Source of the DNA: an uncultured Actinomycetes bacterium
GTDB lineage: Bacteria; Actinomycetota; CADDZG01; JAHWKV01
Reading direction: 5' to 3'
Length of the DNA stretch: 64,000 bases
NCBI GenBank assembly: GCA_964501265.1
Contig: CAZCSK010000003.1
Span: 436 to 64,435 of the forward strand
Part shown: piece by piece, positions 32,913 through 51,309 of the stretch
Position numbering within the stretch: the first letter of the stretch is position 1
Layout of the letters: each line of letters begins with the position of its first letter
Program-made: the position numbers and the translations under genes
The notes under the pieces: generated by a model
The model's input: only the letters and a program-made list of their open reading frames with translations
Databases searched by the model: none
What the model was told of the DNA's origin: nothing

Positions 32913-32929
32913 TGAAGGGGGGTGGTGAG

Positions 32930-34336: not shown

Positions 34337-34337
34337 G

Positions 34338-34865
34338 ATGGAGAACAAATCTCGCTCCCTCTTGGTCGGCGGAGTCATGACGGCCGTCATTCTCGGCGGA
34401 TTGGCTCTTGGCTTCTTTCTGTTGCAAAGTCCGGACCGCTCTCCCGGACCGTCCGAGTCACCGACACCCGCAGCGACGGAGGAGCGGCTGCAGGTCGAGA
34501 AGGCCTATCTAAGATTCTGGGACGCATGGGCCAAGGCCAACGAAACGCTGGATCCCGCCCTCCTCGACGATGCGATGACCGGCGAGGCCCTCGCACAAGC
34601 GCGCGCCCTAGTTGAGGAAGGCCGCGCAAAGAACGAACCGATTCGTATTCGGGTCGAGCACAACTATCACATTGTTATTACTCACGATTCACTAGCGACC
34701 GTCGAGGACTCTTTCCTTGATCGATCGGTCGAACTCGAACCGGAAACTGGCAAACCGGTGGGCCCAGAAGTAAACGAAACCGTCCGCAACAGTTACACGC
34801 TAAAGAAGGAGGGAGGAACATGGAAGGTCGCCGAAATCATCGCCTATCGATCGCCCTCGCCTTAG
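34338..34865 (+). CDS. Membrane-anchored hypothetical protein (tad operon)
   Basis: In-frame ATG 34338 (MENKSRSLLVGGVMTAVILGGLALGFFLL). Single TM helix plus a ~140-aa soluble domain. No family recognised. Confidence 0.55.
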   Translation: MENKSRSLLVGGVMTAVILGGLALGFFLLQSPDRSPGPSESPTPAATEERLQVEKAYLRFWDAWAKANETLDPALLDDAMTGEALAQARALVEEGRAKNEPIRIRVEHNYHIVITHDSLATVEDSFLDRSVELEPETGKPVGPEVNETVRNSYTLKKEGGTWKVAEIIAYRSPSP

Positions 34866-35653
34866 CCTTAGCCTTAATTCTCCCTTTGATGGGAGTTCGG
34901 GCGGCGGCCGATGATGAACAGCAGGCTCGCTATCGGAACAAGCGGCTCTCCACCGCGACTGTCTACACGACGCCGGATGCCGCCGTCGTTGAGGCCGATA
35001 GCGCGGGTGGCGTGTCCGCGGCATCTTCAGTCAAGGCGACCCGGAGAAGGCAATGCCGGCTAGAACCGGTTCTCGCCAATGTCACCTCGAGCAACGTCGA
35101 CATTTACGCGGCACATCAAGGTGAGACGGATTTCTTTCTCTACTGTGACGGCGAGTACGTGGGTCTAGTGTGGCGCAAGATAGACTCCGAACCCCGGGCG
35201 GGCATTTCGATGACACCGGGCGATGTCGCCGAGCACCTCCGTGACGAGATTCCAATGCCGACAGTAAATGTCCGCATCAACCCGGACGTGGGTCTGGTTG
35301 GCGCCGAGTCGTGGTTCTGGATCGAAGGATACTCAGGGGAGGCGATCACCAACTCGACCGACGCACTCGGAAGAGCGGTTGAGGTCGAGGCGAGGGCCAT
35401 TCATTACGAGTGGTTCTTCGGAGACGGATCTACGGCCGCAGCGACGACAACGGGCACGGCCTATCCCGAGAGGTCGCAGATCCGGCATGTGTTTCAGCGG
35501 GCCTCGTCCGGTGGGTATGGGGTCGATGTGCGCTTTACATTTGCGGTCCGGTATCGCGTGGACGGCGGGGCATGGATCGAGCTTCCCGGTATCAGCCGGA
35601 CGGCAACGGCGACCTATCGGGTTAGGGAATCTCAAGCAGTGATATCGAAATGA
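34820..35653 (+). CDS. Secreted hypothetical protein (tad operon)
   Basis: 277 aa with a signal peptide (LALALALILPLMGVRAAA|DD). PKD-like W.FGDGS motif. The start is uncertain (46-nt overlap with the upstream gene). Confidence 0.5.
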   Translation: MEGRRNHRLSIALALALALILPLMGVRAAADDEQQARYRNKRLSTATVYTTPDAAVVEADSAGGVSAASSVKATRRRQCRLEPVLANVTSSNVDIYAAHQGETDFFLYCDGEYVGLVWRKIDSEPRAGISMTPGDVAEHLRDEIPMPTVNVRINPDVGLVGAESWFWIEGYSGEAITNSTDALGRAVEVEARAIHYEWFFGDGSTAAATTTGTAYPERSQIRHVFQRASSGGYGVDVRFTFAVRYRVDGGAWIELPGISRTATATYRVRESQAVISK

Positions 35654-38559
35654 AACGCATTCTCTCTTTCGCCGGATTGGTGCTCGTGCTCGTGGGCATG
35701 CCTTTTGTTCTGAATGTGCTCGTGGGCAGGCCCCACATGCTTCGCGTGGACCTATCAGAGGTGAAGGAGACTCTGTCGGGTTCTTTCCTGTCGGTCGATT
35801 CTGTCATTCGAGGCCTTGGGCTTCTTACGTGGGTCTTGTGGGCATACCTCTTTATTGTCGCGAGCCTGAGGGTGGCGGCGATCATCTTCGTGCAGCGGGG
35901 ATCGCCGGCCGGCAATGCACTGATGTCCGCGACATCACGCATGGCGCCCTCTCTGCTGCTCAAACTCGTCGATGTCGCGCTCGGAGGCATTATGTTGCTG
36001 GGCCCGATTTCCATGGCCAGAGCCGGTCCCGGAGTCTTCCCCACGCCTGCAGCTGGCATCATTCAGACAGCAATGCAACGCGCGGACGTCCCGAACGACC
36101 GTGACCAACCTGAAGTTTCGCGTTCTTACCTTGTCCGGCCGGGTGATTCCCTTTGGCGGATAGCGGAACGTGAACTCGGCTCGGGTAGCTCATGGCAGGC
36201 GATTTACGCGCTCAACCAGGGCCGGCACTTCTCTGACGGCCGAGTCCTCGACAACCCGCGCCTCATCCGGCCGAACTGGGTTCTATGGCTTCCCGGGGCG
36301 GCCGAACCGACATCGAGTACGCCCGTTCAATCAACGACCGCGCCCGTTCAATCAACGACTGAACTTGGATCGATCGAGGTGGTCCCTTCGGTCAACGGAC
36401 ACACCGCCCCAATCTCCCCTCCTCCTGCTGGCGTCGAACCCTCCCGTGACCCAATCTCCCCTCCTCATGCTCCTGTCCAACCCTTCCCTGACCCGATCGT
36501 GAACCTTCCGTCGGGCACCGGGCTTGCGGCATCGTTCGCCTCCGGCATTCTCGCTTCCCAGGCCGTGGTGGCGCTCCGACGACGACGGCGTTATATCCCC
36601 GGCGAACCTAAAGTAGATTCGGCCGAGCCGGCCCTTGTAGTCGACCTTCGTCGCGCCCGTCTCTCCCCGGAGACCGATCTTCTCGAATCCGCCGGTGCAG
36701 AACTAGCGGCCGTCTGGAAGGAACAGTCGGGGAGATGGCCGCCGATTGTTTGCGCGACCGAGCACAAGGATCGGGCAACATTTCTGATCGACGATGCGGG
36801 GGAGATGGAGCTGAAGTCCACCTCGCGCGTCGCCTTTACCCGTCTGGACAAATACGTGCGCGCGGAGATCAAGAAGCCTTTTGTTCAGAGCATGGATCGT
36901 CCCTCGGCTCTGGAGGAGGGTCTTCTGATTCCCATTGGTTCAACGCGTTCGGCAGGGGCAGTGCACGCTGGACTCCTCGCGACCGGGGCGCTGGCCATGA
37001 CCGGGCCAGATGCTCACCGGTTGATGATCCAATCTGTGCTGGCCTGCGTCGGCGGACGCAGCCCGGACGATGTTGAGATCTACTTACTAGGCGCGCCCGA
37101 GGGGTTTGGTCGATGCGTCGAATTGCCCCACATCAAACGAACAAGCTCTTGGGAGGATGCCGAGGCGACCCTACGCGCGATCGAGCTAGAGATTCTGAGG
37201 CGCTCGCGGGTCTTCCTCGACGGAGGATTCTCAGACCTTTGGGAACGGCTGGCTTCAGACCAGGACGAGTTTGGGCCCGCCCTCTTGGTTGTCGCGAGCG
37301 ATCCACCTGCCGCATTGACCGGAGTGCTCGATGGGCTTGCCGCCCAGACCTTGAACAACGGATGCGCCCTCCTAGCCTCGGGGTGGCGCCCGTCTGTCGC
37401 GCGAATCGAGCTTAAGGTTGATTCCACGATCGAAGTTGTTGCCGATGTGCCCGTAGCTTCCGAACCACTGCGCCCGACCCTGCTCGATGACGGCGCCGTC
37501 GAAGAGGTGATCGAGATCATCCTTGCTGCACACCCGCGGAATGCCGAGCCTCGCGAGATCCAGGTCTTCCCCGAGGTGGAGGCGATCAGTGAGAGCCCGG
37601 AGCCGAGCCCGTCGAGCGAACTTGAGTCAGAACTGCGCGCATCGACGGAGCAAGTACTCGACATTTCCGAAGACGAGGAACTTGGGGAAGGTCATGTTGA
37701 GTTGCCGGCCGGAGAAGCGCGCACAGTCATGACCACGCGGCTGATAGATCGGATCGGTCCGCCCGATGAGCACCAGGCCGGAGAACCAGTTGAGGCGCGT
37801 TGCTTGGGTAATTTTCTCGTGTCTCGCGACAGTCTGGCTCTCAATGGGTGGAAAGCGAGATCAAAGGAGCTGCTCGCGTATCTCATCGCTCACCCGGATG
37901 GTGTTTCTAAGGATCGAATAATCGATACGTTTTGGCGAGACTCCAAGAAAAAGAGCGGAGATCATCTACTTAGAGATGCGATCTACCACCTTCGGCGACA
38001 GGTTGCCGGAGGGGAGGACTACAAGTGGTCCGAGGGTTACGTAACCCGCGCGGGCGATCTGATAGCTCTGGAGTCGGGACGTTGGTGGTCGGACGCGTGG
38101 ACGTTCGAGGCGCTCATCAACAAGGCCCGCGAACTTGAGAACGGGGATTCAATTGCGACCTTGCGCCTGGCCCTGGACTTGTACCGTGGAGACTTCTGCG
38201 ACGACACATACTATGCGTGGAACGAGCCTATCCGTGAGCGCTACCGGCGTCTCTTTATTGACGCAACATTCAAACTCGCGGAACTGCTGGAGGTTCAAGG
38301 AGAAGTGGAGTCGGCCGTCCATGCGCTAAATCGTGGTATCGAGGTCGATCCCCTTTGCGAGGAATTTTACCGAAGGGCGATCAAGATCGAAGCATCACTT
38401 GGCCGTACGAGCGCAGCACGGACTCGTTATCAGAAACTAACGTCGGTTCTCGCCGATGAACTCGGTGAGGACCCCGATCCGCAAACGCAAGAACTGATGA
38501 GAAGGCTAAGGAAACCAGAACGGACTCACCCCGAACCGACAGCGATCCACCCTCGCTGA
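35650..38559 (+). CDS. Membrane-anchored LysM / degenerate FtsK-like / winged-helix + BTAD (SARP-type) regulator
   Basis: 969 aa with an ATGA overlap. N-terminal TM helices. LysM (YLVRPGDSLWRIAERELGSGSSWQAIYALN). Pro-rich repeats. The middle shows an FtsK/SpoIIIE-like pattern lacking a Walker A Lys. C-terminal OmpR-type wHTH (VEARCLGNFLV...ELLAYLIAHPDGVSKDRIIDTFW) and BTAD (LDLYRGDF...YRRAIKIEASLGRTSAARTRYQKL). Confidence 0.75.
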   Translation: MKRILSFAGLVLVLVGMPFVLNVLVGRPHMLRVDLSEVKETLSGSFLSVDSVIRGLGLLTWVLWAYLFIVASLRVAAIIFVQRGSPAGNALMSATSRMAPSLLLKLVDVALGGIMLLGPISMARAGPGVFPTPAAGIIQTAMQRADVPNDRDQPEVSRSYLVRPGDSLWRIAERELGSGSSWQAIYALNQGRHFSDGRVLDNPRLIRPNWVLWLPGAAEPTSSTPVQSTTAPVQSTTELGSIEVVPSVNGHTAPISPPPAGVEPSRDPISPPHAPVQPFPDPIVNLPSGTGLAASFASGILASQAVVALRRRRRYIPGEPKVDSAEPALVVDLRRARLSPETDLLESAGAELAAVWKEQSGRWPPIVCATEHKDRATFLIDDAGEMELKSTSRVAFTRLDKYVRAEIKKPFVQSMDRPSALEEGLLIPIGSTRSAGAVHAGLLATGALAMTGPDAHRLMIQSVLACVGGRSPDDVEIYLLGAPEGFGRCVELPHIKRTSSWEDAEATLRAIELEILRRSRVFLDGGFSDLWERLASDQDEFGPALLVVASDPPAALTGVLDGLAAQTLNNGCALLASGWRPSVARIELKVDSTIEVVADVPVASEPLRPTLLDDGAVEEVIEIILAAHPRNAEPREIQVFPEVEAISESPEPSPSSELESELRASTEQVLDISEDEELGEGHVELPAGEARTVMTTRLIDRIGPPDEHQAGEPVEARCLGNFLVSRDSLALNGWKARSKELLAYLIAHPDGVSKDRIIDTFWRDSKKKSGDHLLRDAIYHLRRQVAGGEDYKWSEGYVTRAGDLIALESGRWWSDAWTFEALINKARELENGDSIATLRLALDLYRGDFCDDTYYAWNEPIRERYRRLFIDATFKLAELLEVQGEVESAVHALNRGIEVDPLCEEFYRRAIKIEASLGRTSAARTRYQKLTSVLADELGEDPDPQTQELMRRLRKPERTHPEPTAIHPR
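36321..36359 (+). repeat. Short in-frame tandem repeat (21-nt period) in the Pro-rich linker
   Basis: GCCCGTTCAATCAACGAC occurs at 36321..36338 and 36342..36359, encoding PVQSTT twice. Confidence 0.8.
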
Positions 38560-38608: not shown

Positions 38609-39244
38609 TCACTCCGGAAGCTCGAAACGATAAATGACAGAAGCCTCAAACTGATGGCCTGGCCTCGACCAAGACACTTCATACTGCCCTCCGGTCAATG
38701 CGGGGGCCTGAGGGCCAAATTCATCTGGATACCTCGCAGACGTAGCCATATCCATGGACGCAACAGGGATCTTCACCTCCTTCCCTATGCTGATCCCAGA
38801 TGGATGCTTCAATACGCACCTTAGGATTCCCCAGGTAGAACTGACAGGACGAATCCTCAACATGAGCGCACCGCCCTCTAGCCAGTGGCTAGGGTGGGGA
38901 GGCCACTCCGGCAGACTCGGCTTTGTGGGCAGGGATGACTCTCTGGGCCTGGCAGCCGCGACGCCAGCGTCGAGACTGCGACTTGGGGTCGATGGTCGTC
39001 GAGTCCCACGTCTGACACCAACCCAGGACCCGAGCTCCTGCGACCAAACAGAAAGGGCAATTATCAGGAGCCCGGCCAACATTAGGCCCGTGCGGAACAA
39101 ATCCGAAGACACAAACGAAAGTGGATCGGTTTCTGCGACCTCGTTCAGTAACTCGGGTCCAGTCCATCCAGTCCAGGTGAGGAGGCCGCCGATTGCTACA
39201 GCAACGGCTCGGATTACTCTCAGGATGGTTACTTTTTTCGACAT
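38609..39244 (-). CDS. Hypothetical membrane protein
   Basis: 211 aa with two N-terminal hydrophobic helices. Lies in a region that looks lower in GC by eye. No family recognised. Confidence 0.5.
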   Translation of the reverse strand: MSKKVTILRVIRAVAVAIGGLLTWTGWTGPELLNEVAETDPLSFVSSDLFRTGLMLAGLLIIALSVWSQELGSWVGVRRGTRRPSTPSRSLDAGVAAARPRESSLPTKPSLPEWPPHPSHWLEGGALMLRIRPVSSTWGILRCVLKHPSGISIGKEVKIPVASMDMATSARYPDEFGPQAPALTGGQYEVSWSRPGHQFEASVIYRFELPE

Positions 39245-39537
39245 CGTTCAATTCGCCTCAGAACCAAGGTTTGCACAGCAGTACATCTGGAAGCACGATT
39301 TCCGAAAAGACTCAAACGTGAAGGAGGGTGCAAAGGAGATCTATGGCAGAAACCCTTCCGCACCGTAAGAGCGCAGTTCCAACTAGGCAATAGTGTTCGG
39401 TACATATGGATTCATGCTGACAACACCAACGCCTCTCAATTTGTAGAGAATCTGACGAGGCACCCGCACGAGAGGGAGCTGCTTATTGCGCGCGCACCGC
39501 GCGGCAGACTTGTTCCAGACCCATCAAACGCCTCCAC

Positions 39538-40722
39538 CTACTCCTCGATTGACTCGAGCGGATGAGTGCGCCTCATAAATTTGTCGAACTGCGGCACGGT
39601 GAACTCATTGAGCCCGTGAGAGGGGCTAAAGATAAGCCCCTTTTCGATAAGTCGAGCTCGTGTGGGGGCTACGTTTTCCGGCCCCGGTCGGCCAAGCCCG
39701 GTTGCAATCTCTCCAGATCGATAAGGTCCCTCACCCAGATCTGCCATCGCGGCCAGATACCTCAGTTCCGCATGTGTCACCCTCGCTACTCGAACGCGAA
39801 AGAAGTTCTCGTCGAGCTGTTGCTCAACGAGAGGCTTCGCGTCGAGGGCGTCCTGATGGGTGATTGCGTCACCCGTCGCCAAATTCCAAACATGTTTTCC
39901 GTATTCCTGGAGAAAGTACGGGTAGCCCTGCGTGTATTCCAAGATTTCGCTAGTAGCCTCTGGTTCGAAGCTCGCGCCCTCATCATCGGCTGGTAGTTCA
40001 AGGGCCTGCCGAGCGGCCTCCGAGTCCAACTGACCGATCATCGGAAAGTCGAACAAGCGCTCCGCGTAGGACTTAGCAGCGCCAGCTAGTGCCGGTAGCT
40101 GAGGCAAACCCGCACCCACAAGGGTTACAGGGAGAGAGCGTTGGGCGACTTGATGCAAGGCGGCGATCAGCGCTTCTAGCTCTGGTCGATCGAGAAACTG
40201 AATCTCATCTATCAGAAATGCGATACCGGTCTTATGCTCTTCGGCGGCCTGCCCGAGCGCCACGAAAAGGTCAGAAAGATCGTCCCCCAAGCTCCCCGAG
40301 TCGGCCTGACCTCTTATAGCTTCCACATCTATTCCGATTTCTGCACCATCTGGAAGTCTCAGCGTGAAGGCCTTAAGTACCCCGGCTGCTCGAAGCGCTC
40401 GCTCCTTGAGCCGCTCAAGAGGGCTCAGGGAAAGCAACGCGCGCCTCACCAGTCGGGCCACCATAGGCTTAAAGTCTGTCTCGTGCGTGATCTCTGTCTT
40501 CGCCGTTCGGAATTCAGCCTCTTCCGCAATATTCTCGAACGTGTTCAGCAAAACGGTTTTTCCGACCCCCCTGAGTCCGGTGACGATCATGCTCTTTTCG
40601 GGCTTGCCTAAGCGCAGGCGTTCCAGCAGGATCCGGAAGGCGTCAAGCTGGGCATCTCGGCCCGTGAGGGCCGGAGGCCTCGATCCCGCCCCTGGGGTGT
40701 AAGGGTTTCGAATTGGATCCAT
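39538..40722 (-). CDS. AAA/STAND-like ATPase (Arch_ATPase / AAA_16-like) with probable C-terminal winged helix
   Basis: 394 aa. N-terminus NPYTPGAGSRPPALTGRDAQLDAF. Walker A TGLRGVGKTVLL and Walker B IAFLIDEIQFL. Confidence 0.7.
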   Translation of the reverse strand: MDPIRNPYTPGAGSRPPALTGRDAQLDAFRILLERLRLGKPEKSMIVTGLRGVGKTVLLNTFENIAEEAEFRTAKTEITHETDFKPMVARLVRRALLSLSPLERLKERALRAAGVLKAFTLRLPDGAEIGIDVEAIRGQADSGSLGDDLSDLFVALGQAAEEHKTGIAFLIDEIQFLDRPELEALIAALHQVAQRSLPVTLVGAGLPQLPALAGAAKSYAERLFDFPMIGQLDSEAARQALELPADDEGASFEPEATSEILEYTQGYPYFLQEYGKHVWNLATGDAITHQDALDAKPLVEQQLDENFFRVRVARVTHAELRYLAAMADLGEGPYRSGEIATGLGRPGPENVAPTRARLIEKGLIFSPSHGLNEFTVPQFDKFMRRTHPLESIEE

Positions 40723-40752
40723 GTCTGCACAAGTGTAGCTAGTTATGAGGTA

Positions 40753-40771
40753 CTTATCAAGACTTGATAAG
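40753..40771. promoter_or_regulatory. Perfect 9+1+9 palindrome upstream of the AAA ATPase gene
   Basis: CTTATCAAG-A-CTTGATAAG lies 31 nt upstream of the ATPase start codon (40722, minus strand). Confidence 0.6.
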
Positions 40772-40834
40772 GTGCCTATAACCCCGACACATTACAAGGG
40801 CTTCCGATGATTCGTGGAACCTAGCCGCCGTCCT

Positions 40835-41359
40835 TCATTGATCTAGTTTGCCGTCCGGCCACCTGCGCCATCGGCTCCCGTGGTTATCGGTGAAAGTCAG
40901 ACGGATTGGCGGTCGCGGGAGTCCCCAATCCCTTTTCAAGTGTTTCGGCTGTGGGGCAACGGAAAATTCGAGTTCCGTAGTTTCGCTCTCAGGCTGGATG
41001 TTGCTCACCCATAGGGAGGACAGAGCCTTGGACGACCTGCCTTTCCAGTCCCATGAGAGGAGCGACACCTCGCAGTCATAGATCGAAACAGGGTTGCGAT
41101 TGGCAACTCGTACGAGGGCTTCCCCAGATTCCTCGACCTGACCCGTTTGTTGGTTTGACTTTTGCTGGTACGAAATCCGTTGGTGAATGACCGAGACTCG
41201 ACCTGCCTGTTCCTTCCGACGATTGTCCACTGCCCGGCGGTATGTGATGGCTGCGAACCATAGTGCCCCGCCAGTTGCAATAGCACCCACCCACGTAGGC
41301 ACATCTCCAAAGTCGAAAGCGCCGCATACGGAACGGATGTTGTCCAAGAACCCGCTCAT
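40835..41359 (-). CDS. Hypothetical membrane protein
   Basis: Start chosen at the internal Met (MSGFLDNIRSV...), just before the single TM helix (WVGAIATGGALWFAAITY). The upstream 68 codons of the track ORF have no support. Confidence 0.45.
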   Translation of the reverse strand: MSGFLDNIRSVCGAFDFGDVPTWVGAIATGGALWFAAITYRRAVDNRRKEQAGRVSVIHQRISYQQKSNQQTGQVEESGEALVRVANRNPVSIYDCEVSLLSWDWKGRSSKALSSLWVSNIQPESETTELEFSVAPQPKHLKRDWGLPRPPIRLTFTDNHGSRWRRWPDGKLDQ

Positions 41360-41696
41360 TATCTCAGCTCCGCTCGTGGCAGAGTTGGCTCCGGTGCAAT
41401 GGGTATCCAGAATTGCCGCTTTCAGCGGACGGGACCACCGGATTTTCAAAGCATGGGACCATCTCTCGTTCCCTTGGTTGGCCGGAGCGGATGCTAACGA
41501 TTGTAGTTGTAGACGGTAGGTCCGGATTCGGTTTTCATCAAACCGGGGGTAAACCGCTTTCATGCCAGGACCCGAGAATCCACAACTCTCGGTGATAGCA
41601 CACGCCAGATGGGATCACGCAGAAAGTCATGAGGAGGTCGGCGGGGCGATCGAAGCATCTCGATAGTTAAAGCGCTGACATCGCTCGCGGGCTTGC

Positions 41697-41737
41697 TCCG
41701 ACGTTAGTCCGACGCTTTTCCGACGTTAGTCCGACGC
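41697..41737 (+). repeat. Iterons: four TCCGACG copies at 11-bp phasing (two 19-nt units TCCGACGTTAGTCCGACGC)
   Basis: Direct reading: TCCGACGTTAG TCCGACGCTTT TCCGACGTTAG TCCGACGC. Lies 22 nt upstream of gene 41759. Confidence 0.85.
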
Positions 41738-41758
41738 GGCCCCTTCAGGCTGCTTGGT

Positions 41759-42454
41759 ATGGCTTGGATGCGAACGGTTGAGAAGAATTTCGAGCGGCTC
41801 AGGGCGAACAGCCGCATAGAGGACGCCTTCCAGGGTTGGAAGGAAGATCAGCCCGCCCTTGAGGGGTTCGAGGGTGTCGAGGAGCTGATCCGCTTCTGCC
41901 GCAACCGGAATGATGACCTCCTGCACGAAAAGAACCGAGTCATCGCTGCCGTTTGCGCCGAGGCCGCGCAAGACGACGACGAAGCCGGGCTCCTGCTGGT
42001 CTGGCTCTTCATAGGCATCTTTCGCAATTTGGCAGGAAGAATCGGGGAGTGTCCTCTCAGCCCGGACGAGTTGGAATCCGAGATGCTGGCGGCCTTCTGG
42101 GAGGAGGTCAGACGAGCCGAGGAGGAAAAGCTCGTGGGCAACCTCTTCTACGCGGTCAAGCATCGCTTATGGGAAGCGATTCGGGAGAAGAGGGCGGAGC
42201 TTTCACGACGGTCGGATTTCAATCTGGAGCCCGCCGGAGCCTCTCCATTCGTGAACAACCCTGCTCTGGTCGTCGAACGAGCTGCCAAAGAGGGGGTTCT
42301 CTCGGCGGCTGACGCCGAACTCGTCATCGCCACGCGCTTGGAGGACCTGTCGGTCGAGGATTTTGTGCGAAAGCATGGCTTGAGCCTGGAAGGAACCCAC
42401 AAGAGGCGACAGCGCGCCGAGCAGAAGCTGATCGACTGGCTTCGGTCCGAGTGA
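41759..42454 (+). CDS. Sigma-70 region-4-like / HTH regulatory protein of the conjugative element
   Basis: 231 aa. The C-terminus (LSAADAELVIATRLEDLSVEDFVRKHGLSLEGTHKRRQRAEQKLIDWL) resembles sigma-70 region 4. First plus-strand gene before the T4SS genes. Confidence 0.45.
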   Translation: MAWMRTVEKNFERLRANSRIEDAFQGWKEDQPALEGFEGVEELIRFCRNRNDDLLHEKNRVIAAVCAEAAQDDDEAGLLLVWLFIGIFRNLAGRIGECPLSPDELESEMLAAFWEEVRRAEEEKLVGNLFYAVKHRLWEAIREKRAELSRRSDFNLEPAGASPFVNNPALVVERAAKEGVLSAADAELVIATRLEDLSVEDFVRKHGLSLEGTHKRRQRAEQKLIDWLRSE

Positions 42455-42474
42455 GCCCTCAGGGGGTCCCCGCC

Positions 42475-42506
42475 GCGTCGGACTCGCGTCGGACTAGCGT
42501 CGGACA
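42475..42506 (+). repeat. Iterons: three GCGTCGGAC copies at 11-bp phasing, inverted relative to 41697..41737
   Basis: Direct reading: GCGTCGGACTC GCGTCGGACTA GCGTCGGACA. CGTCGGA is the reverse complement of TCCGACG. Confidence 0.85.
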
Positions 42507-42650
42507 AGTGTCTGTGTCCAAAACAGGCCCCTTTTTCGACCTTTCTTAAGTACCGGACCTGTGGGGCGAAAGGTTCCCAGCCTCCACTCACGAGAGAAAG
42601 GAGACCGTCTTCGTCCCCAGGTCCTGTCCACAACATCAAGGAGGACGACT

Positions 42651-42929
42651 ATGAACGGGATCCGGATCTTGCAACTGGCTGCAGCCGACGAGGGGTTGGG
42701 GGAGATAGTGCGGATTCTCGACGGGGTCCGCAATTTCCTTATCGCCATTTTGACGGCTCTGGCCATCCTGGCCATGACCTACGCCGGCATCCGCTACGTC
42801 ATGGCGGCCGGCGACCCGGCGGGAGTGGAACGGGCCAAGACCGCCGCGAGGTCGGCCGTCGTGGGCTTGGCTCTCGCTCTCCTAGCCCCTGTACTCGTTT
42901 CCATCGTCAAGCGGATCATCGGAGTCTGA
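42651..42929 (+). CDS. T4SS pilin-like (TrbC/VirB2-type) small membrane protein
   Basis: In-frame ATG 42651 preceded by AAGGAGGA. 92 aa with two hydrophobic helices (FLIAILTALAILAMTYAGIRYV; AVVGLALALLAPVLVSIV). Confidence 0.6.
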   Translation: MNGIRILQLAAADEGLGEIVRILDGVRNFLIAILTALAILAMTYAGIRYVMAAGDPAGVERAKTAARSAVVGLALALLAPVLVSIVKRIIGV

Positions 42930-42934
42930 CGCGG

Positions 42935-43951
42935 GTGAGCCAGCGCATAGCGTTCGTCACGCTCCTCGCCGTTGTGGCTGTGACCATCATGGCGAGTCCC
43001 GTCGCGGCCCAACAGAGTGAAAGCGCTCCCCCGCCTACCACTCCAAGTCCCGCGCCCAACATCGACCAGCCCGCCGGGAGTGAGCCGTCACCCTTCGATA
43101 TTGGAGGGCGAATCCGATCCGCAATCAGCGAGTGGTTCTCCGATCTTGTCGCCTCGGCCCTCAAGCCTGTGTTCGATCTGCTGGGACGCACCGTCTTCTC
43201 CACACCACAACTGGGCGATCACGGCCGCGTCAGAGATCTCTGGCGCTTCTCCATCGGCGTCGCAGATTCGCTACTTCTGATCATGGTCCTGGTAGGGGCT
43301 GGCCTGGTTACGGTCAACGGCGGCCTTGGCGTCCAGCTCACCGCGAAGGAATTGATTCCGCGCGTTCTTCTGGCCGCGGGCGCCGCCAATCTGAGCCTTC
43401 TGTTTCTCGGCATCGCGATCTCGCTCTCCAACGCGCTTGCGAGAGGGATGCTCGGATCGATCGATGCCGATGCAGTCGCCAAGAAAATGACGGAGTCTCT
43501 CTTCGGCGAGGGGTTCGTCAATCCTTTCTACGCCATCCTCGCTCTCGCGGTGGTCGTGTTGGGTCTGCTCGTCGTGGTGGCCTACGTCTTGCGCGTCGCG
43601 ATTCTGGTTGTCCTGGCGTCGGCGGCTCCCCTAATGTTGATCGCTCACGCCCTGCCCCAGTCTGAGAACTGGGCGCGGCTTTGGTGGAGAGCGGTTGTGG
43701 CGAGTCTGGTGGCTCCAGTCGCCCAGGCACTGCTTCTGTCGGTCGCCTTCCGGATCTTTCTTTCAAGCGACGGGCTGCTAGGACTGACCAGCGGAGGTCT
43801 GATCGACCTCCTGGTAATCGGCTGCATCCTCTATTTGCTTTTCAAGATTCCTTTTTGGGCGCTCAACACTGCGCTCGCGGGCGCGGGATCCTCGACATGG
43901 GGAGCCACCAAGCGCTATGCAGGAATGGCCGTCAAGGCGGTGGTCGCATGA
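42935..43951 (+). CDS. TrbL/VirB6-like polytopic conjugal-transfer membrane protein
   Basis: 338 aa with a signal peptide and a Pro-rich segment, then multiple TM helices. Positioned between the pilin and PrgI/VirB4 genes. Confidence 0.55.
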   Translation: MSQRIAFVTLLAVVAVTIMASPVAAQQSESAPPPTTPSPAPNIDQPAGSEPSPFDIGGRIRSAISEWFSDLVASALKPVFDLLGRTVFSTPQLGDHGRVRDLWRFSIGVADSLLLIMVLVGAGLVTVNGGLGVQLTAKELIPRVLLAAGAANLSLLFLGIAISLSNALARGMLGSIDADAVAKKMTESLFGEGFVNPFYAILALAVVVLGLLVVVAYVLRVAILVVLASAAPLMLIAHALPQSENWARLWWRAVVASLVAPVAQALLLSVAFRIFLSSDGLLGLTSGGLIDLLVIGCILYLLFKIPFWALNTALAGAGSSTWGATKRYAGMAVKAVVA

Positions 43952-44850
43952 GCACCCGAATCCCCGCCGACGTCGACATGCCCGACCGCATCTTCGCGGG
44001 GCTGACCGCGCGGCAACTTGCCATCTTGTCCTGCTGCGGCCTGCTGCTATGGGGGATGTACATGACCTTCGGGGCAGAGATCCCGCTGGTTGCCTTCGGA
44101 GCAATGGCGGCCCCGGTCGCGGCTGCAGGACTCGTCGTCGCGACTACGACGCCCGGCCGGGTTCCCCTTGAGAAGCTCTTCGTGCTCGGACTTCGTCATC
44201 TGGCGACGACGAACAAGAGGGTCCTTGCCCCGGAGGGCATCCCCGATGTCGCCCGATGGGCCCGAAAGCTCACCGGGAAGATTGCGCCGCTCGACACACC
44301 ACTGCAGGGGCTGCACGCATCCGGCATCCTGAATCTGGGTGCCGACGGAGCCGCCTCCGTCTGCGAGTCCTCCTCAATCAATTTCGCTCTGCGTTCGGAG
44401 GATGAGAAGGCGGCGCTCATTGAGGGATTCGAGCGCGTCCTCAACTCACTCGACGCTCCCGTCCAGTTCCTGGTGAGATCCGAAAAGGCGGACCTGCACT
44501 CGATGATCGCTTCGTTGGAACGCGAAGCGGCGTTTCTGCCCAATCCGGGACTCACGGCAGCGGCCCTCGAACACGCCTCATTTCTAAAACTCATGGCATC
44601 GCAAGAAGACACGCTAAGACGGCGCGTCCTCGTTTGCGTGAGGGAAACGCGCCTCGACGCGCGGGGAACCTCAAAACTCGAGCACAGGACCGAGGAGACC
44701 TCCTCTTTGCTTCGAGGAATGGGGATACATCTCGATGGTCTCGGGGCGGAGGAGTTTCTTCCGTTGATACGTCGCGCCCTTGACGATGACAACGTTGCCG
44801 GTTCGCGGATGCACCTTCCGGACGAGGTCGTGAAGGGAGCCCGGACGTGA
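43948..44850 (+). CDS. PrgI/VirB3-like membrane protein fused to a VirB4 N-terminal-like region
   Basis: In-frame ATG 43948 (ATGA overlap). PrgI-type N-terminus (DRIFAGLTARQLAILSCCGLLLWGMY). About 200 further residues resemble the N-terminal domain usually found in VirB4-type ATPases. Confidence 0.6.
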   Translation: MSTRIPADVDMPDRIFAGLTARQLAILSCCGLLLWGMYMTFGAEIPLVAFGAMAAPVAAAGLVVATTTPGRVPLEKLFVLGLRHLATTNKRVLAPEGIPDVARWARKLTGKIAPLDTPLQGLHASGILNLGADGAASVCESSSINFALRSEDEKAALIEGFERVLNSLDAPVQFLVRSEKADLHSMIASLEREAAFLPNPGLTAAALEHASFLKLMASQEDTLRRRVLVCVRETRLDARGTSKLEHRTEETSSLLRGMGIHLDGLGAEEFLPLIRRALDDDNVAGSRMHLPDEVVKGART

Positions 44851-46544
44851 AGCCGAGCCGGAGCACTCTGCTGGGCCCCGACTCTGTCGAGGTGTTTGCC
44901 CGACGACTTAAGGCGGGAGAAGTCTGGCATCAAACGCTGGCGATCACCGGGTACCCGCGCGAGGTGAGTCCGGGATGGCTGACCCCGCTTCTCACCTACC
45001 CCGGCCGAGTGGATGTCGCCATCCATGTTGAGCCCGTTCCCAACGAGGTCGCCGTCAGGGGGCTGCGTCGGCAATCGGCCCGTTTCGAGTCGACTCGGCA
45101 GATCGATTCGACTCGGGGAAAGCTCCCCGATCCGGAGATAGACGCCGCAGCGGAGGACGCGAACCGGCTCATGTCGGGAGTGGCGCGCGGAGAAGGCCGG
45201 CTCTTTAAGGTTGGGCTGTACATCACCGTCTCGGCATCGACCGCGGAAGCGCTCGAAGCTGAGGTGGAAAGAGTCCGCGCGCTCTGCGGATCGATGCTAC
45301 TGGACGCGCGCCCGCTGGCTTTCCGGGCGCTTCAGGGATGGATCAGCACTCTGCCTTTGGGTCTTGACGCGGTGCGTCTTCGTCGCACCTTCGACACCAG
45401 GGCGCTCGCGGCGTGCTTTCCGTTCGCGAGTTCTGAAATCGGGGGCTCGTATGGGATTCTTCTCGGAAGAAACGCCGTCAGCGGCAGTCTCATGTTTCTC
45501 GACCGTTTTGCTCTGGAGAACCATAACCAGGTCATCCTCGCCCACTCCGGCAAGGGCAAGAGCTTCTTCGCCAAGCTCCAGGTTCTTCGGTCGCTTTACC
45601 AGGGCATCGACGTTCTGGTAGTCGATCCGGAGAACGAGTATCAGCGGCTCGCAACCGCCGTCGGGGGATCGGTCATCCGTCTCGGCAGCGAGGAGGGCAG
45701 ATTGAACCCTCTGGACCTCGCCGAGGCGGGCCGTGCCGACGCGCTTACTCGCCAGAGCCATTTCGTTGCGACCCTCGTGGATTCGATGCTCGACGGACTC
45801 CCGCAGGTTCACAGAGCGGAGCTAGACCGGGCGGTCCTCGCCGCCTACGACCGCTCGGGCATAACCCTTGACGTGCGGACCCACGGGCGCAAGACCCCGG
45901 TTCTGGGCGACGTAGTCGAGGCGCTCAAGGCAGACGGCGCCGAGGGTTTTGCCAGGCAGCTCGAGCCCTACGTCCACGGGTCAAGCCGCGGGCTCTTCGA
46001 CGCACCGACAAGTGTGAGACCCGAGGGTCGCCTGGTGGTCTTCTCGCTCAAAGACGTGCCCGCGGAACTCAAAGGCCCAGCGACTTTGATGGCGCTTGAA
46101 ACGATCTGGCGCACGGTGTCTCGCGGCGAAACGAAGCGGCGGGTCGTGGTGGTCGACGAAGCTTGGCTTCTGCTTCAGACCGACGCGGGAGCGAAGTTCT
46201 TGGAGCGTCTTGCGCGCTCTTCCCGCAAGTATCTGTGCGGCCTCACCACGATCACCCAGGACGTGAGGGACGCGCTTTCCAGCCACATCGGCCACACCAT
46301 CGTCACGAATGCAGCGAGCCAGGTAATCCTCGGCCAGCACCCGCAGGCGATCGAGGCACTGGCGGAGGCGTTCGGTCTGTCGAAGGGGGAGTGCTCTTAT
46401 CTGGTCGCCTGCCCTCAAGGTCAGGGACTTTTGTGCATCGGAAACGAAAGGGCGCCGCTTCGCGTCGTGGCTTCGGAATTCGAGCACGCACTCGTCACAT
46501 CCAATCCTGCCGAACTCATCGCTCTGGAAAAGGAGGCTTCATGA
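44847..46544 (+). CDS. VirB4/TraE-like T4SS ATPase (C-terminal ATPase portion)
   Basis: 565 aa with a GTGA overlap. WHQTLAITGYPREVSPGWL. Walker A LAHSGKGKSFFAK and Walker B VVVVDEAWLLL. Confidence 0.8.
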   Translation: MKPSRSTLLGPDSVEVFARRLKAGEVWHQTLAITGYPREVSPGWLTPLLTYPGRVDVAIHVEPVPNEVAVRGLRRQSARFESTRQIDSTRGKLPDPEIDAAAEDANRLMSGVARGEGRLFKVGLYITVSASTAEALEAEVERVRALCGSMLLDARPLAFRALQGWISTLPLGLDAVRLRRTFDTRALAACFPFASSEIGGSYGILLGRNAVSGSLMFLDRFALENHNQVILAHSGKGKSFFAKLQVLRSLYQGIDVLVVDPENEYQRLATAVGGSVIRLGSEEGRLNPLDLAEAGRADALTRQSHFVATLVDSMLDGLPQVHRAELDRAVLAAYDRSGITLDVRTHGRKTPVLGDVVEALKADGAEGFARQLEPYVHGSSRGLFDAPTSVRPEGRLVVFSLKDVPAELKGPATLMALETIWRTVSRGETKRRVVVVDEAWLLLQTDAGAKFLERLARSSRKYLCGLTTITQDVRDALSSHIGHTIVTNAASQVILGQHPQAIEALAEAFGLSKGECSYLVACPQGQGLLCIGNERAPLRVVASEFEHALVTSNPAELIALEKEAS

Positions 46545-47077
46545 AACTGGTAATCGCAGGCGTTGCTTTGATTCTCACCTTCCCCGTGGTGGCGGCGGGC
46601 GCCGTTGTAGACGCGCTTGCGGCAGAGGCGCCGCCAGCGGTAGTAGCAGGCGACATTGATGCACTGCGAACCCAGGTTCTATCAGACCCTCGCGTACGGC
46701 TTTCTGCGAACGCGAGACAAGACATTGAGGACGGAAGAGTCGATGCGCGGGTCCTTAACGCTTTGGTCTTCCTGTCCGCGAGACACGATCTCGGTTGGGT
46801 GGGACCTTTCGTGAGCGGGCACTCCTACTTCGTGAAGGGAACGATGCGCGTCTCCAATCATGTTCGCGGCCGCGCTGTGGACATTTCGGTTATCGACGGT
46901 GCCATGGTTTCTACTCGAAATGCCTCCGCCCTAGAAGCGGCTCGCGCCGCCCTTTCATTGCCCGCGCCGCTCCGTCCCGATGAGGTCGGCTCGCCGTGGT
47001 CCTTGTCGGAGCCGGGTGCCTTTAGCAACGTTATGCATCAGGACCATCTTCATCTCGGTTGGGGAGGTAACCCATGA
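46541..47077 (+). CDS. Secreted LAS-type (M15/VanY-like) cell-wall hydrolase
   Basis: In-frame ATG 46541 after AAGGAGG (ATGA overlap). Signal peptide. SNHVRGRAVD fits SxHxxGxAxD, and the downstream HQDHLH could supply further metal ligands. Confidence 0.65.
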   Translation: MKLVIAGVALILTFPVVAAGAVVDALAAEAPPAVVAGDIDALRTQVLSDPRVRLSANARQDIEDGRVDARVLNALVFLSARHDLGWVGPFVSGHSYFVKGTMRVSNHVRGRAVDISVIDGAMVSTRNASALEAARAALSLPAPLRPDEVGSPWSLSEPGAFSNVMHQDHLHLGWGGNP

Positions 47078-47703
47078 TTATTCGGAACTTTATCTGCTCG
47101 CGATGCGGTAGTCACATCCGGTGTCCTCTGCGCGGCGGAACACCGACCTGCCCTAGGTGTGCCTCTTCGGCTCTCACGGCTGCCTCCTCGGATTTCATGA
47201 CTCTAAAGGCGACAGCGGAAAAGGAGGCCATCCTGCGAGAGCTGGCGTGGATGGAGCCGGATCTTTCCGAGAAAACGATCCTCGCCGTAATCGACCGCGC
47301 GGCCCCCAACGCGCAATCGCTCGCCAGTATCGCCCGGCAGGTGGCCAAGGACATCGACCTGCTGTACGGATCATGGAGGGCAACTCCGCTAATGTCTGGC
47401 TTCATCTGGCTTCTGCGCAGGGCCGGAGCGCGCAACATCCAAATGCCGCGGTGCTACGACTGCGAACAGGTCACTCCGCTCACGTACAGTTTCGAAGACA
47501 AACGTCTATGCGAGCGGTGCTACCGACGGTTTTCCCGCCTGGACGTTTGCGCGGGTTGTGGCAGGGACGAGATTGCACGCACGACCGAATGGGGTGAGCC
47601 TCTCTGTAAGGACTGCGATTCAGATGAGAGGGATTGGGCTCCGCCGAGCCGTCTTGAGAAAGGCGGCTCGGCTCGAGGACGAGAGAGGCTCGATCTTAAA
47701 TGA
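47074..47703 (+). CDS. Cys-rich (multiple CxxC) zinc-ribbon-like hypothetical protein
   Basis: 209 aa with an ATGA overlap. CxxC pairs: CSRCG...CPRC, and CYDC...CERC...CAGCG...CKDC. Confidence 0.55.
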   Translation: MIIRNFICSRCGSHIRCPLRGGTPTCPRCASSALTAASSDFMTLKATAEKEAILRELAWMEPDLSEKTILAVIDRAAPNAQSLASIARQVAKDIDLLYGSWRATPLMSGFIWLLRRAGARNIQMPRCYDCEQVTPLTYSFEDKRLCERCYRRFSRLDVCAGCGRDEIARTTEWGEPLCKDCDSDERDWAPPSRLEKGGSARGRERLDLK

Positions 47704-51061: not shown

Positions 51062-51309
51062 GCGACGTTCAAACTGCTGCTACGAAAGTCCATGGCGTCG
51101 GGGTCGCCCCAATGAGTGATGGACTCGCTGTCGTGATCGAGGTCAACCTGTCCACACCCGAGGAAGCCGCGGCTCTTCGCCACAAGCAAACGGCGGCGAT
51201 ACGCCGCTTCCTTGAGAGCGTGGCGGATAACCGTCGAAAATCGGGATTGTCGGGCGCGCGGGGTAGTCTCGGAGGTTCAAGAGCAGAGCGGAAGGTGGTG
51301 AACGAATGA
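51058..51309 (+). CDS. Hypothetical small protein (ICE)
   Basis: 83 aa with GTGA and ATGA overlaps to its neighbours. No family recognised. Confidence 0.45.
   Translation: MSDVQTAATKVHGVGVAPMSDGLAVVIEVNLSTPEEAAALRHKQTAAIRRFLESVADNRRKSGLSGARGSLGGSRAERKVVNE

What the first reader, a model, noticed from the sequence alone, without database searches (positions are those of the whole stretch)
41697..42506. Helically phased iterons in inverted orientation flank the first gene of the conjugative element
Upstream of gene 41759..42454 the heptamer TCCGACG occurs four times at exactly 11-bp spacing (41697, 41708, 41719, 41730). Twenty nucleotides after its stop, the complement occurs three times at 11-bp spacing within GCGTCGGAC units (42475, 42486, 42497). 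One helical turn of phasing on both sides of a regulator-like gene suggests cooperative binding or looping. Candidate binders are the gene product, the Replic_Relax protein (making this an oriT) or a replication initiator. The site lies at the inferred left edge of the T4SS module.
Basis: seen in the sequence. Interest (0 to 1): 0.6.

Follow-up and report, generated by a model that had tools for sequence, protein, structure and literature searches.

The report
SARP-type repeat boxes switching on conjugation
The phased repeats are real and look like docking sites for a SARP-type activator that the mobile element itself encodes, placed so as to switch on a sigma-factor-like gene that in turn probably drives the DNA-transfer machinery; binding has not been tested.

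Summary
Observation confirmed. TCCGACG lies at 41697, 41708, 41719 and 41730. GCGTCGGAC lies inverted at 42475, 42486 and 42497. A third array sits on contig C16, and these are the only three in the 2.78-Mb genome.

Gene 41759-42454 is a divergent ECF-type sigma-like protein that always precedes the T4SS pilin gene. Each unit is 8 conserved plus 3 variable bases. The upstream 8-mers lie at -63..-56, -52..-45, -41..-34 and -30..-23 from the start codon. A NANNNT hexamer sits at -13..-8, and there is no Shine-Dalgarno sequence. This is the published layout of SARP boxes on a leaderless promoter. It recurs in 15 of 17 related loci, although the unit sequence differs between elements.

The repeats do not track the sigma-like protein's DNA-reading helix. 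A separate -35-like block before the pilin gene does.

The element encodes a LysM-SARP protein (35650-38559). Synteny, including a circularly permuted copy, shows that this gene and a Tad pilus operon belong to the ICE.

Best reading (about 0.55): SARP boxes start a cascade of SARP, then sigma-like factor, then T4SS operon. An oriT bound by Replic_Relax is not excluded. The role of the inverted array is open.

The parts
41696..41739 (+). Upstream array of four 11-nt direct repeats. The 8-mers lie at 41696-41703 (CTCCGACG), 41707-41714, 41718-41725 and 41729-41736. Relative to the A of the start codon (+1) these are -63..-56, -52..-45, -41..-34 and -30..-23. I read it as a SARP-type box overlapping the -35 region of the promoter of the sigma-like gene.
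   Evidence: The geometry matches the published SARP rule (PMC10936776).
41746..41751 (+). Candidate -10 hexamer CAGGCT (A at position 2, T at position 6) at -13..-8. It implies that transcription starts at or next to the ATG, giving a leaderless mRNA. No Shine-Dalgarno sequence precedes the ATG.
   Evidence: NANNNT lies at -12..-7 or -13..-8 in 15 of 17 family loci. The background rate is 0.073 and the binomial probability is 1e-15. The start site is inferred, not mapped.
41759..42454 (+). Gene for a divergent ECF-type sigma-like protein (P0001, 231 aa). It has a family-specific N-terminal extension of about 60 residues, followed by sigma-2-like and sigma-4-like domains.
   Evidence: The single sequence gives no Pfam hit. 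A family profile of 83 members hits ECF sigma factors in the PDB (2q1z, 5.9e-8, spanning sigma-2 and sigma-4). Of the 83 members, 17 hit Sigma70_r4_2. The AF2 model has pLDDT 93, and all listed Foldseek matches are sigma factors or RNA-polymerase complexes, although with weak E-values.
42475..42505 (-). Downstream array of three 11-nt units in inverted orientation. Read on the minus strand the 8-mers GTCCGACG occupy 42498-42505, 42487-42494 and 42476-42483. The array ends 9 nt before the -35-like block of the T4SS operon. Its role is unresolved.
   Evidence: It is conserved in L001 and L003, where it is split into 2+3 and 2+2 units.
42515..42541 (+). Candidate promoter of the T4SS operon, read by the sigma-like factor: -35-like TGTCCAAAA (from 42515) and -10-like CGACC (42537-42541), separated by 17 nt.
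   Evidence: The block is conserved before the pilin gene across the family, while the repeats change. The -35-like word tracks the sigma-4 helix: THKRRQR with TGTCC, xxMRRxR with GTTAC or GTTAG, and xxMQxTR with GTTTC. The start site is not mapped.
42549..42630 (+). Structured leader of the pilin/T4SS mRNA: one long closed hairpin that starts at the conserved G(U/A)xCCGG.
   Evidence: z-scores run from -2.3 to -5.0 in six lineages whose helix sequences differ. Rfam gives no match.
42651..42929 (+). T4SS pilin gene, the first structural gene of the operon. It has a strong Shine-Dalgarno sequence (AAGGAGG).
   Evidence: Pfam T4SS_pilin, 1.1e-11.
42935..51061 (+). Rest of the T4SS module: TrbL/VirB6-like, PrgI-like, VirB4 ATPase, a hydrolase, a Cys-rich protein, the coupling protein and Replic_Relax (50213-51061).
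35650..38559 (+). Membrane LysM-SARP protein (969 aa). It carries an OmpR-type winged helix and a BTAD domain at its C-terminus. It is the proposed binder of the arrays.
   Evidence: Pfam BTAD 3.8e-23, LysM, and a weak Trans_reg_C hit. The C-terminal 269 aa match the whole SARP domain of AfsR (8hvr_I, 1.7e-6). The gene is syntenic with the T4SS module in G094:C2, G101:C61 and L003, and in permuted order in G094:C1.
28551..35653 (+). Tad/Flp pilus operon (RcpC/CpaB, a ParA-like ATPase, TadA, two T2SSF proteins, TadE/G-like). It travels with the SARP gene and the T4SS module.
   Evidence: Pfam; synteny.
38609..41563 (-). Variable cargo between the SARP gene and the sigma-like gene: a 211-aa membrane protein, an AAA_16 ATPase and a 242-aa protein. 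L003 carries an OLD-TOPRIM/UvrD pair at this place.
   Evidence: Homology between the window, L001 and L003 begins only at the array.
51306..53117 (+). Large serine recombinase gene, whose end overlaps tRNA-Glu (53042-53117, minus strand). This marks the right edge of the element.

Best explanation
**What the arrays are.** I read them as SARP-type activator boxes belonging to a regulatory cascade of an integrative conjugative element (ICE).

**Proposed steps**
1. The element encodes a membrane-anchored LysM-SARP protein (35650-38559).
2. Its OmpR-type winged helix would bind head to tail, one protomer per 11-nt unit, contacting the 8 conserved bases.
3. At the upstream array the units lie at -30..-23, -41..-34 and further upstream. 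They replace a -35 element, so the host's principal RNA polymerase can fire from a weak -10 hexamer (CAGGCT). This would yield a leaderless mRNA for the ECF-type sigma-like protein.
4. The sigma-like factor would then direct RNA polymerase to its own kind of promoter (TGTCCAAAA-N13-CGACC, from 42515). That promoter transcribes the pilin/T4SS/coupling-protein/Replic_Relax operon through a long 5' hairpin leader.
5. The inverted array (42475-42505) and the third array on contig C16 each lie just upstream of such a sigma-type promoter block. They would bind the same protein. Whether that gives co-activation, repression or looping is not resolved.

**Shown here**
- The arrays, their conservation and their rarity in the genome.
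- The fixed geometry across the family.
- The sigma-like nature of the flanked gene.
- The SARP domain, and its membership of the element.

**Inferred**
- Who binds the arrays.
- Both transcription start sites.
- The direction of regulation.
For: **Unit anatomy and geometry**
- The 11 units in this genome are (G/t/c)TCCGAC(G/a) plus 3 variable bases at an 11-bp period.
- PMC10936776 states that SARP repeats are spaced 11 or 22 bp. It states that each protomer contacts the first 8 bp of an 11-nt repeat and not the last 3, and that the 3' repeat lies 8 bp from the -10 element. In afsS the two repeats span -40..-30 and -29..-19.
- Here the last 8-mer spans -30..-23 from the start-codon A, and a NANNNT hexamer sits at -13..-8.
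- In 15 of 17 related loci the last unit ends at -22 or -23 and NANNNT lies at -12..-7 or -13..-8, although the unit sequence differs.
- The background rate is 0.073. The binomial probability is 1e-15, or 5e-11 for about 11 lineages.

**The SARP protein**
- The C-terminal 269 aa of the 969-aa protein align with the whole AfsR SARP domain (1.7e-6). Pfam BTAD scores 3.8e-23.
- It is the only BTAD match in this genome.

**The SARP gene belongs to the element**
- The order Tad operon, SARP, variable cargo, sigma-like gene, T4SS, Replic_Relax is shared with G094:C2. There gltX lies 450 kb away.
- SARP followed by the sigma-like gene is also seen in G101:C61 and L003.
- The order is circularly permuted in G094:C1.
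- Full-length homologues occur in 5 of 10 genomes with a strong sigma-like hit, against 2 of 103 others. Fisher's exact test gives 3.5e-5, but the genomes are related and so not independent.

**Recognition helix against unit sequence**
- The SARP recognition helix is identical in the window and L003, which share units.
- It reads GERLLR(D/E)ALYHLRKQ in G094:C2 and G101, which share GCGACG units.

- Its sigma-4 helix tracks the -35-like block, not the repeats.
Against: - No binding or start-site data exist. The -10 hexamer and the leaderless start are inferred from sequence regularities.
- L001 has the same arrays but an ABC-transporter gene 0.8 kb upstream and no SARP within its 6.5-kb contig.
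- L004 has no SARP within 5 kb upstream.
- Five of the ten genomes with a strong sigma-like hit show no LysM-SARP homologue. Four of those assemblies are 78-85% complete and the fifth about 90%, so absence is not shown.
- The L004/L006 group and G094:C1 do not show the leaderless geometry. They have a Shine-Dalgarno sequence, and their arrays lie further upstream.
- Inverted arrays upstream of a promoter are not the textbook SARP arrangement. The canonical geometry read leftward from the inverted array gives no good -10 hexamer (my reading).
- Other winged-helix proteins, such as OmpR/PhoB response regulators, use the same 11-bp geometry. Replic_Relax is described in the literature as carrying a winged-helix domain.
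- The window and G094:C2 SARPs carry the same residues at the two positions that align with AfsR's base-contacting T88 and R92. Their units share only CGACG.
Confidence: 0.55

Rival explanations
1. The arrays are part of the origin of transfer. Replic_Relax, the putative relaxase, would bind the phased repeats either alone or with an accessory protein. It would nick nearby, and relaxosome assembly would at the same time regulate the two promoters.
For: - Replic_Relax is the one candidate DNA-processing protein present in every complete relative.
- The arrays lie in intergenic DNA at the head of the transfer operon and form a 41-nt, 83% complementary inverted pair.
- The C16 array sits next to an ArdC-N-like gene and a DnaN gene, which resembles a leading region. 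It could therefore mark a mobilisable island.
- From my own knowledge of pIP501 and R388 (not checked here), relaxosome proteins often regulate transfer promoters as well.
Against: - Nothing ties Replic_Relax to these sites specifically.
- An oriT gives no reason for the last unit to keep a fixed distance of 22-23 nt from the start codon, with NANNNT at -12..-7, in 15 of 17 loci.
- No conserved nick-like sequence or hairpin lies next to the arrays across the family.
- The C16 locus copies the promoter block as well as the array.
Confidence: 0.13
2. The arrays are operators for another element-specific DNA-binding protein. Examples are a small ribbon-helix-helix or HTH protein such as the 83-aa ORF at 51058-51309, the Cys-rich zinc-ribbon protein, or an unrecognised factor. 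It would repress both promoters, possibly by looping, as a conjugation on/off switch.
For: - The repeats are element-specific and lie over or next to both promoters.
- Arrays in opposite orientation are a recurring feature.
- By eye the 83-aa ORF has a strand-helix-helix pattern.
Against: - tblastn finds no homologue of the 83-aa ORF in G094, G100 or G012. The Cys-rich protein is found in L003 and G094:C1 only.
- Neither has a Pfam DNA-binding hit.
- The 8+3-nt unit and its position fit an activator that replaces a -35 element better than a repressor.
Confidence: 0.15
3. The sigma-like protein binds the arrays itself, through its sigma-4 domain. It would autoregulate and mark its target promoters with multiple -35-like sites.
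For: - It is the only gene that always lies between or next to the arrays.
- In the window family the unit begins GTCC, like the -35-like TGTCC.
Against: - L016 and L017 share the same sigma-4 recognition helix (MRRKR) and a similar -35-like word (GTTAG, GTTAC). Yet their repeats are unrelated: YCCGACRC against GTGACCGGAA.
- L004 and L018 fall in the same helix class with two further repeat types.
- The family-specific N-terminal extension is acidic and does not look DNA-binding (my reading).
- From my own knowledge, free sigma factors rarely bind DNA in arrays.
Confidence: 0.07
4. The arrays are replication iterons for maintenance of the excised element.
For: They are direct repeats spaced one helical turn apart.
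Against: - No Rep-family hit appeared among the ORFs I scanned with Pfam.
- There is no DnaA box within one mismatch and no AT-rich unwinding stretch; the lowest 30-mer has 40% GC.
- From my own knowledge, the units are shorter than typical iterons of 17-22 bp.
Confidence: 0.03

Closest known systems
SARP boxes of Streptomyces antibiotic regulatory proteins (AfsR/afs box, ActII-ORF4, DnrI; PMC10936776)
   Same: - Direct repeats at an 11-bp period, with 8 contacted plus 3 free bases per unit.
- The repeats overlap the -35 region, and the last unit lies about 8-9 bp from a weak -10 hexamer.
- An OmpR-type winged helix plus BTAD protein is encoded in the same gene cluster.
   Different: - The regulator is the C-terminus of a 969-aa membrane LysM protein.
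- It is carried by an ICE, not a biosynthetic cluster.
- Its target is a leaderless sigma-like gene.
- There are four units rather than two or three, and further arrays in inverted orientation lie upstream of other promoters.
- No binding data exist.
Pho boxes of PhoB and other OmpR-family response regulators
   Same: They use 7-8-bp direct repeats with 3-4-bp spacers at an 11-bp period, replace the -35 element, and are bound head to tail. This rests on my own knowledge and was not checked here.
   Different: No receiver-domain regulator is conserved in the element. The unit sequence is specific to each element, so a host regulator is unlikely.
ECF (group 4) sigma factors
   Same: - The protein has a two-domain sigma-2/sigma-4 architecture.
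- The candidate promoter has a -35 word followed by an A-tract and a CGTC-like -10 word.
- The sigma-4 helix covaries with the -35 word.
   Different: - It has an N-terminal extension of about 60 residues.
- The single sequence fails all Pfam sigma models.
- No anti-sigma gene lies next to it.
- It is apparently not self-transcribed but SARP-dependent.
- It is dedicated to a T4SS operon.
Repeat-array switches of conjugative plasmids (pLS20 Rco operators; R388 StbA with its stbDR repeats; R1 ParR with parC)
   Same: They use two sets of short repeats, phased by about one helical turn, beside the first gene of a transfer or maintenance operon, and binding is cooperative. This rests on my own knowledge and was not checked here.
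   Different: - Those binders are Xre-type HTH, StbA-type HTH or ribbon-helix-helix proteins encoded next to the repeats.

Membership tests
SARP-dependent promoter (SARP box) | Direct repeats separated by 11 or 22 bp | tested here: met
   There are four units at exactly 11 bp. The same period is seen across the family. The rule is quoted from PMC10936776.
SARP-dependent promoter (SARP box) | An 11-nt unit with its first 8 bp conserved (contacted) and its last 3 bp free | tested here: met
   All 11 units in the genome are (G/t/c)TCCGAC(G/a) plus 3 variable bases.
SARP-dependent promoter (SARP box) | [quoted passage not shown] | tested here: inconclusive
   The last 8-mer ends 9 bp before the NANNNT hexamer, at -30..-23 from the start-codon A. 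This geometry recurs in 15 of 17 loci. The -10 hexamer and the start site are inferred, not mapped.
SARP-dependent promoter (SARP box) | A SARP-domain protein (OmpR-type winged helix plus BTAD) encoded in the same cluster | tested here: met
   The candidate is 35650-38559. It scores BTAD 3.8e-23 and matches the AfsR SARP domain at 1.7e-6. Its synteny with the T4SS module is shown.
SARP-dependent promoter (SARP box) | The SARP binds the repeats and activates transcription | not testable with these tools
   This needs EMSA or footprinting and in vitro transcription.
ECF-type sigma factor | Sigma-2 and sigma-4 domains | tested here: met
   This holds at profile level only. The family profile hits 2q1z RpoE at 5.9e-8 over both domains. 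Of the 83 members, 17 hit r4_2 and 4 hit r2. All listed Foldseek matches are sigma factors or RNA-polymerase complexes, with E-values of 2.6e-3 or weaker. P0001 alone gives no Pfam hit.
ECF-type sigma factor | Binds core RNA polymerase and directs it to a cognate promoter | not testable with these tools
   Indirect support only: the sigma-4 helix covaries with the -35-like word.
Origin of transfer | A nick site cut by the element's relaxase, usually beside an inverted repeat | not testable with these tools
   No conserved nick-like motif was seen by eye across the family. Replic_Relax has no characterised nick site.
Replication iterons | An adjacent Rep initiator gene, an AT-rich unwinding element and DnaA boxes | tested here: not met
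   No Rep-family hit appeared among the scanned ORFs. There is no DnaA box within one mismatch, and the lowest 30-mer has 40% GC.

The most novel reading that the evidence does not exclude
The LysM-SARP protein is a membrane-tethered sensor. It would read a cell-wall or cell-contact signal through its LysM part. It would then turn on, through the phased boxes, a private sigma factor that fires the T4SS operon of an ICE which also carries its own Tad pilus. The same boxes would also wire in an unlinked island on contig C16, carrying DnaN and an ArdC-like gene next to defence genes. The inverted arrays would tune or loop the switch. This would be a one-component, contact-sensing, three-tier control circuit for conjugation, outside the known roles of SARPs.
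Probability: 0.25. Interest if true: 0.75.

Novelty: new variant of a known kind. Interest (0 to 1): 0.6.

Why it matters
**Known role of SARPs.** SARPs are known as switches for antibiotic gene clusters. In the papers I could search I found none that links a SARP to a conjugative T4SS.

**What would be new.** If the reading holds, a family of ICEs in uncultured bacteria uses a membrane-bound SARP and a private sigma factor in series to decide when to build the transfer machine. Atlas look-alikes of the sigma-like protein are commonest in Actinomycetota.

**Why it is testable.**
- The sites, the candidate binder and the two promoters are all defined to the base.
- Each element has its own unit sequence. 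The family therefore offers a natural set of matched SARP-and-box pairs for working out how these proteins read DNA.

**Other consequences.**
- The sigma-like family (880 representative proteins at E up to 0.001) gets a first functional context.
- Tad pilus genes turn out to travel with a monoderm-type T4SS.

Tried and rejected
**Searches for more loci**
- Scans of genome contigs and metagenome contigs with the close-family alignment A1 returned nothing beyond L001 and L003.
- A VirB4-seeded scan returned 80 loci, mostly Patescibacteria. None carries the sigma-like gene.

**Searches on the sequence itself**
- P0001 alone gave no Pfam hit even at E=10.
- A five-sequence profile gave only spurious PDB hits.
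- Rfam gave no match on 41000-43000.
- The sigma-70 promoter scan found no promoter in 41400-42800.

**Same repeat pattern in viral contigs**
- Six viral contigs carry tandem 11-mers of the same heptamer.
- No homologue of any element protein lies nearby, so I treat them as unrelated.

**Readings considered and dropped**
- RNA pairing of the two arrays across the sigma-like mRNA. Only the 8-mers are conserved, not the spacers, which points to protein sites.
- An antisense promoter fired from the inverted array. The expected -10 position reads CCCCCT in the window and is not conserved in L003 or L004.
- The SARP gene as mere chromosomal neighbour. Synteny in a different genomic place and the permuted copy argue against this.

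**Leader structure**
- A consensus fold of the pilin leaders on a MAFFT alignment recovered only the outer helix. Single-sequence folds were used instead.
Full report
**1.

All seven heptamers are at the stated coordinates. The ORF is 41759-42454, and the first downstream unit starts 20 nt after the stop codon.

The conserved unit is 8 bases, (G/t/c)TCCGAC(G/a), followed by 3 variable bases. From the genome's own heptamer frequency, 1.2e-5 in-phase triples are expected. A one-mismatch scan of all 114 contigs finds only three arrays of three or more good units:
- the two arrays in the window;
- a four-unit array at C16:16096-16135.

**2. The flanked gene**

P0001 (231 aa) has no Pfam hit on its own. 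A full HMMER search with its close relatives found 880 representative proteins at E up to 0.001.

A profile of 83 of them gave these results:
- It matches solved ECF sigma factors over both the sigma-2 and sigma-4 domains (2q1z, 5.9e-8).
- 17 members hit Sigma70_r4_2, 4 hit Sigma70_r2 and 3 hit Sigma70_ECF.
- The AlphaFold model is confident (pLDDT 93).
- All listed Foldseek matches are sigma factors or RNA-polymerase complexes, but with weak E-values.

So this is a divergent ECF-type sigma-like protein with an N-terminal extension of about 60 residues. In every locus with enough DNA it sits directly before a T4SS pilin gene.

**3. The arrays are a family trait, but their sequence is not**

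L001 and L003 keep GTCCGACG arrays on both sides of the gene.

More distant members carry different units at the same places and the same 11-bp (sometimes 22-bp) period:

| Locus | Unit |
|---|---|
| L004, L006 | GTGTGAY or GGTGACG |
| L016 | YCCGACRC |
| L017 | GTGACCGGAA |
| L018 | CCGTCGCGG |
| L021 | ACCGCG |
| G094:C2, G100, G101 | GCGACG |
| L107 | TCTCTCC |
| L104 | CCTCCC |

The binder is therefore specific to each element.

**4. The sigma-like protein does not read the repeats**

A second block just before the pilin leader is conserved across the family. In the window it reads TGTCCAAAA-N13-CGACC-TTTCTTAAGTACCGG.

Its first word tracks the sigma-4 recognition helix:

| Sigma-4 helix | -35-like word | Loci |
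|---|---|---|
| THKRRQR | TGTCC | window, L001, L003 |
| xxMRRxR | GTTAC or GTTAG | L004, L016, L017, L018 |
| xxMQxTR | GTTTC | L015, L105, L106 |

Within the MRRxR class the repeats are four unrelated sequences. L016 and L017 have the same helix, MRRKR. I therefore read the block as the promoter used by the sigma-like factor, and the repeats as sites for something else.

The RNA that follows the block folds into one long hairpin in six lineages, with z-scores from -2.3 to -5.0.

**5. Geometry of the upstream array**

Relative to the A of the start codon:
- The window's 8-mers lie at -63..-56, -52..-45, -41..-34 and -30..-23.
- CAGGCT (A at position 2, T at position 6) lies at -13..-8.
- There is no Shine-Dalgarno sequence, whereas the pilin gene has AAGGAGG.

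In 15 of 17 loci the last unit ends at -22 or -23, and a NANNNT hexamer lies at -12..-7 or -13..-8. For L003 I take the in-frame ATG 9 nt upstream of the called start, which restores the family N-terminus MAWMR.

The background rate for such a hexamer is 0.073. That gives a binomial probability of 1e-15, or 5e-11 if close relatives are collapsed to about 11 lineages.

The simplest reading is a leaderless mRNA from a promoter with a weak -10 hexamer and no -35 element, with the repeats in the -35 position. The exceptions have a Shine-Dalgarno sequence, and their arrays lie further upstream. They are L004 and L006 (both counted among the 17) and G094:C1 (checked by eye, not counted).

**6. This is the published SARP layout**

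PMC10936776 states the following:
- SARP target promoters carry direct repeats 11 or 22 bp apart.
- The 3' repeat lies 8 bp from the -10 element.
- In the AfsR complex each protomer contacts the first 8 bp of an 11-nt repeat and not the last 3.
- The two repeats span -40..-30 and -29..-19 and overlap the -35 element.

**7. The element encodes a SARP**

The 969-aa protein at 35650-38559 has LysM, a weak Trans_reg_C hit and BTAD. Its last 269 residues align with the whole SARP domain of AfsR (1.7e-6). It is the only BTAD match in this genome.

It is not a core chromosomal gene:
- Homologues occur in 4 of 20 genomes of the taxonomic family, while gltX occurs in 18 of 20.
- In G094:C2 the block Tad operon, SARP, about 3 kb of variable cargo, sigma-like gene, T4SS, coupling protein, Replic_Relax is collinear with window 28551-51061. 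There gltX lies 450 kb away.
- G101:C61 and L003 show the same SARP-to-sigma order.
- G094:C1 holds the same genes in circularly permuted order: sigma-like gene through Replic_Relax, then the Tad operon, then SARP. This is what a circular element integrated at another point would give.

Across 113 genomes of the class, a full-length LysM-SARP occurs in 5 of 10 with a strong sigma-like hit, against 2 of 103 others. Fisher's exact test gives 3.5e-5, but related genomes are not independent.

The SARP recognition helix is identical in the window and L003, which share units. In G094:C2 and G101, which share GCGACG units, it reads GERLLR(D/E)ALYHLRKQ.

**8. What remains open**

- The inverted array ends 9 nt before the -35-like word. 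The C16 array stands in the same orientation 19 nt before a copy of that block, TGTCCAAAA...GTCCTTTTATAAGT. The 10-nt difference keeps roughly the same helical face.
- On C16 the block points at small ORFs, a DnaN gene and an ArdC-N-like gene, beside a defence island.
- Across the family the distance from the inverted array to the block varies from 0 to 22 nt, by my reading. I cannot say whether these sites activate, repress or loop.
- An oriT role for the arrays is not excluded.
- L001 and L004 show no SARP gene in the little DNA available.

**9. Provenance**

- L104 comes from genome G061, which is unpublished. It is one of the 17 loci.
- The tallies include unpublished genomes: G061, G112, G111, G069, G034, G036, G104, G078, G076, G024, G028, G099, G039, G040 and G047.
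- G112 counts among the five genomes that hold both a sigma-like gene and a SARP gene.
- None of the other claims depends on these genomes.

Noticed in passing
G000:C16:16096-16135 (L010 1480-1545; L012 10097-10136): This is a third four-unit GTCCGACG array, on another contig. It lies between a minus-strand defence island (OLD-TOPRIM/UvrD pair, PIN, helicase, MmeI, reverse transcriptase) and a plus-strand operon. The operon holds a 93-aa ORF, an 89-aa HTH-like ORF, DnaN, an ArdC-N-like gene and a phosphatase. A copy of the sigma-type promoter block precedes the operon. No other element gene has a paralogue in the genome.
   Followed up: partly
window 42549-42630, and the same place in L003, L004, L021, L105, L106: The pilin/T4SS mRNA leader folds into one long closed hairpin that starts at the conserved G(U/A)xCCGG. 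The helix sequence differs between lineages, and z-scores run from -2.3 to -5.0. Rfam has no match.
   Followed up: partly
window 28551-53117; G094:C2 121478-143513; G094:C1 25717-50674: The mobile element is larger than the T4SS module. A Tad/Flp pilus operon and the LysM-SARP gene travel with it. One relative carries the same genes in circularly permuted order.
   Followed up: yes
window 38609-41563; L003 1032-4765: The gap between the SARP gene and the sigma-like gene is a cargo hot spot. The window holds an AAA_16 ATPase with two orphan genes. L003 holds an OLD-TOPRIM ATPase with a UvrD-like helicase, plus a Trans_reg_C protein.
   Followed up: partly
window 44847-46544; L023-L102: Among named genomes, the nearest relatives of the VirB4 ATPase (33-40% identity) are almost all Patescibacteria, mainly Saccharibacteria. 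One is a Chloroflexota MAG. None of those loci has the sigma-like gene.
   Followed up: partly
window 26660-27748: A regular ECF sigma factor with clear Pfam hits and a C-terminal extension of about 180 residues lies just left of the Tad operon. It is outside the block shared with G094.
   Followed up: no
window 51058-51309: An 83-aa ORF overlaps the end of the Replic_Relax gene. By eye it has a strand-helix-helix pattern. It has no Pfam hit, and tblastn found no homologue in G094, G100 or G012.
   Followed up: partly
L135-L140 (IMG/VR contigs): Six viral contigs carry tandem 11-mers built on the same TCCGACG heptamer, with 3 to more than 10 copies. No homologue of any gene of this element lies nearby.
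   Followed up: partly
L107 (G016:C11) and L108 (G012:C82): In two relatives the open frame of the sigma-like gene runs on for 70-90 residues with no intergenic gap, and the DNA just past its stop codon already looks like pilin coding sequence. Arrays and a promoter-like block all lie upstream of the sigma-like gene.
   Followed up: no
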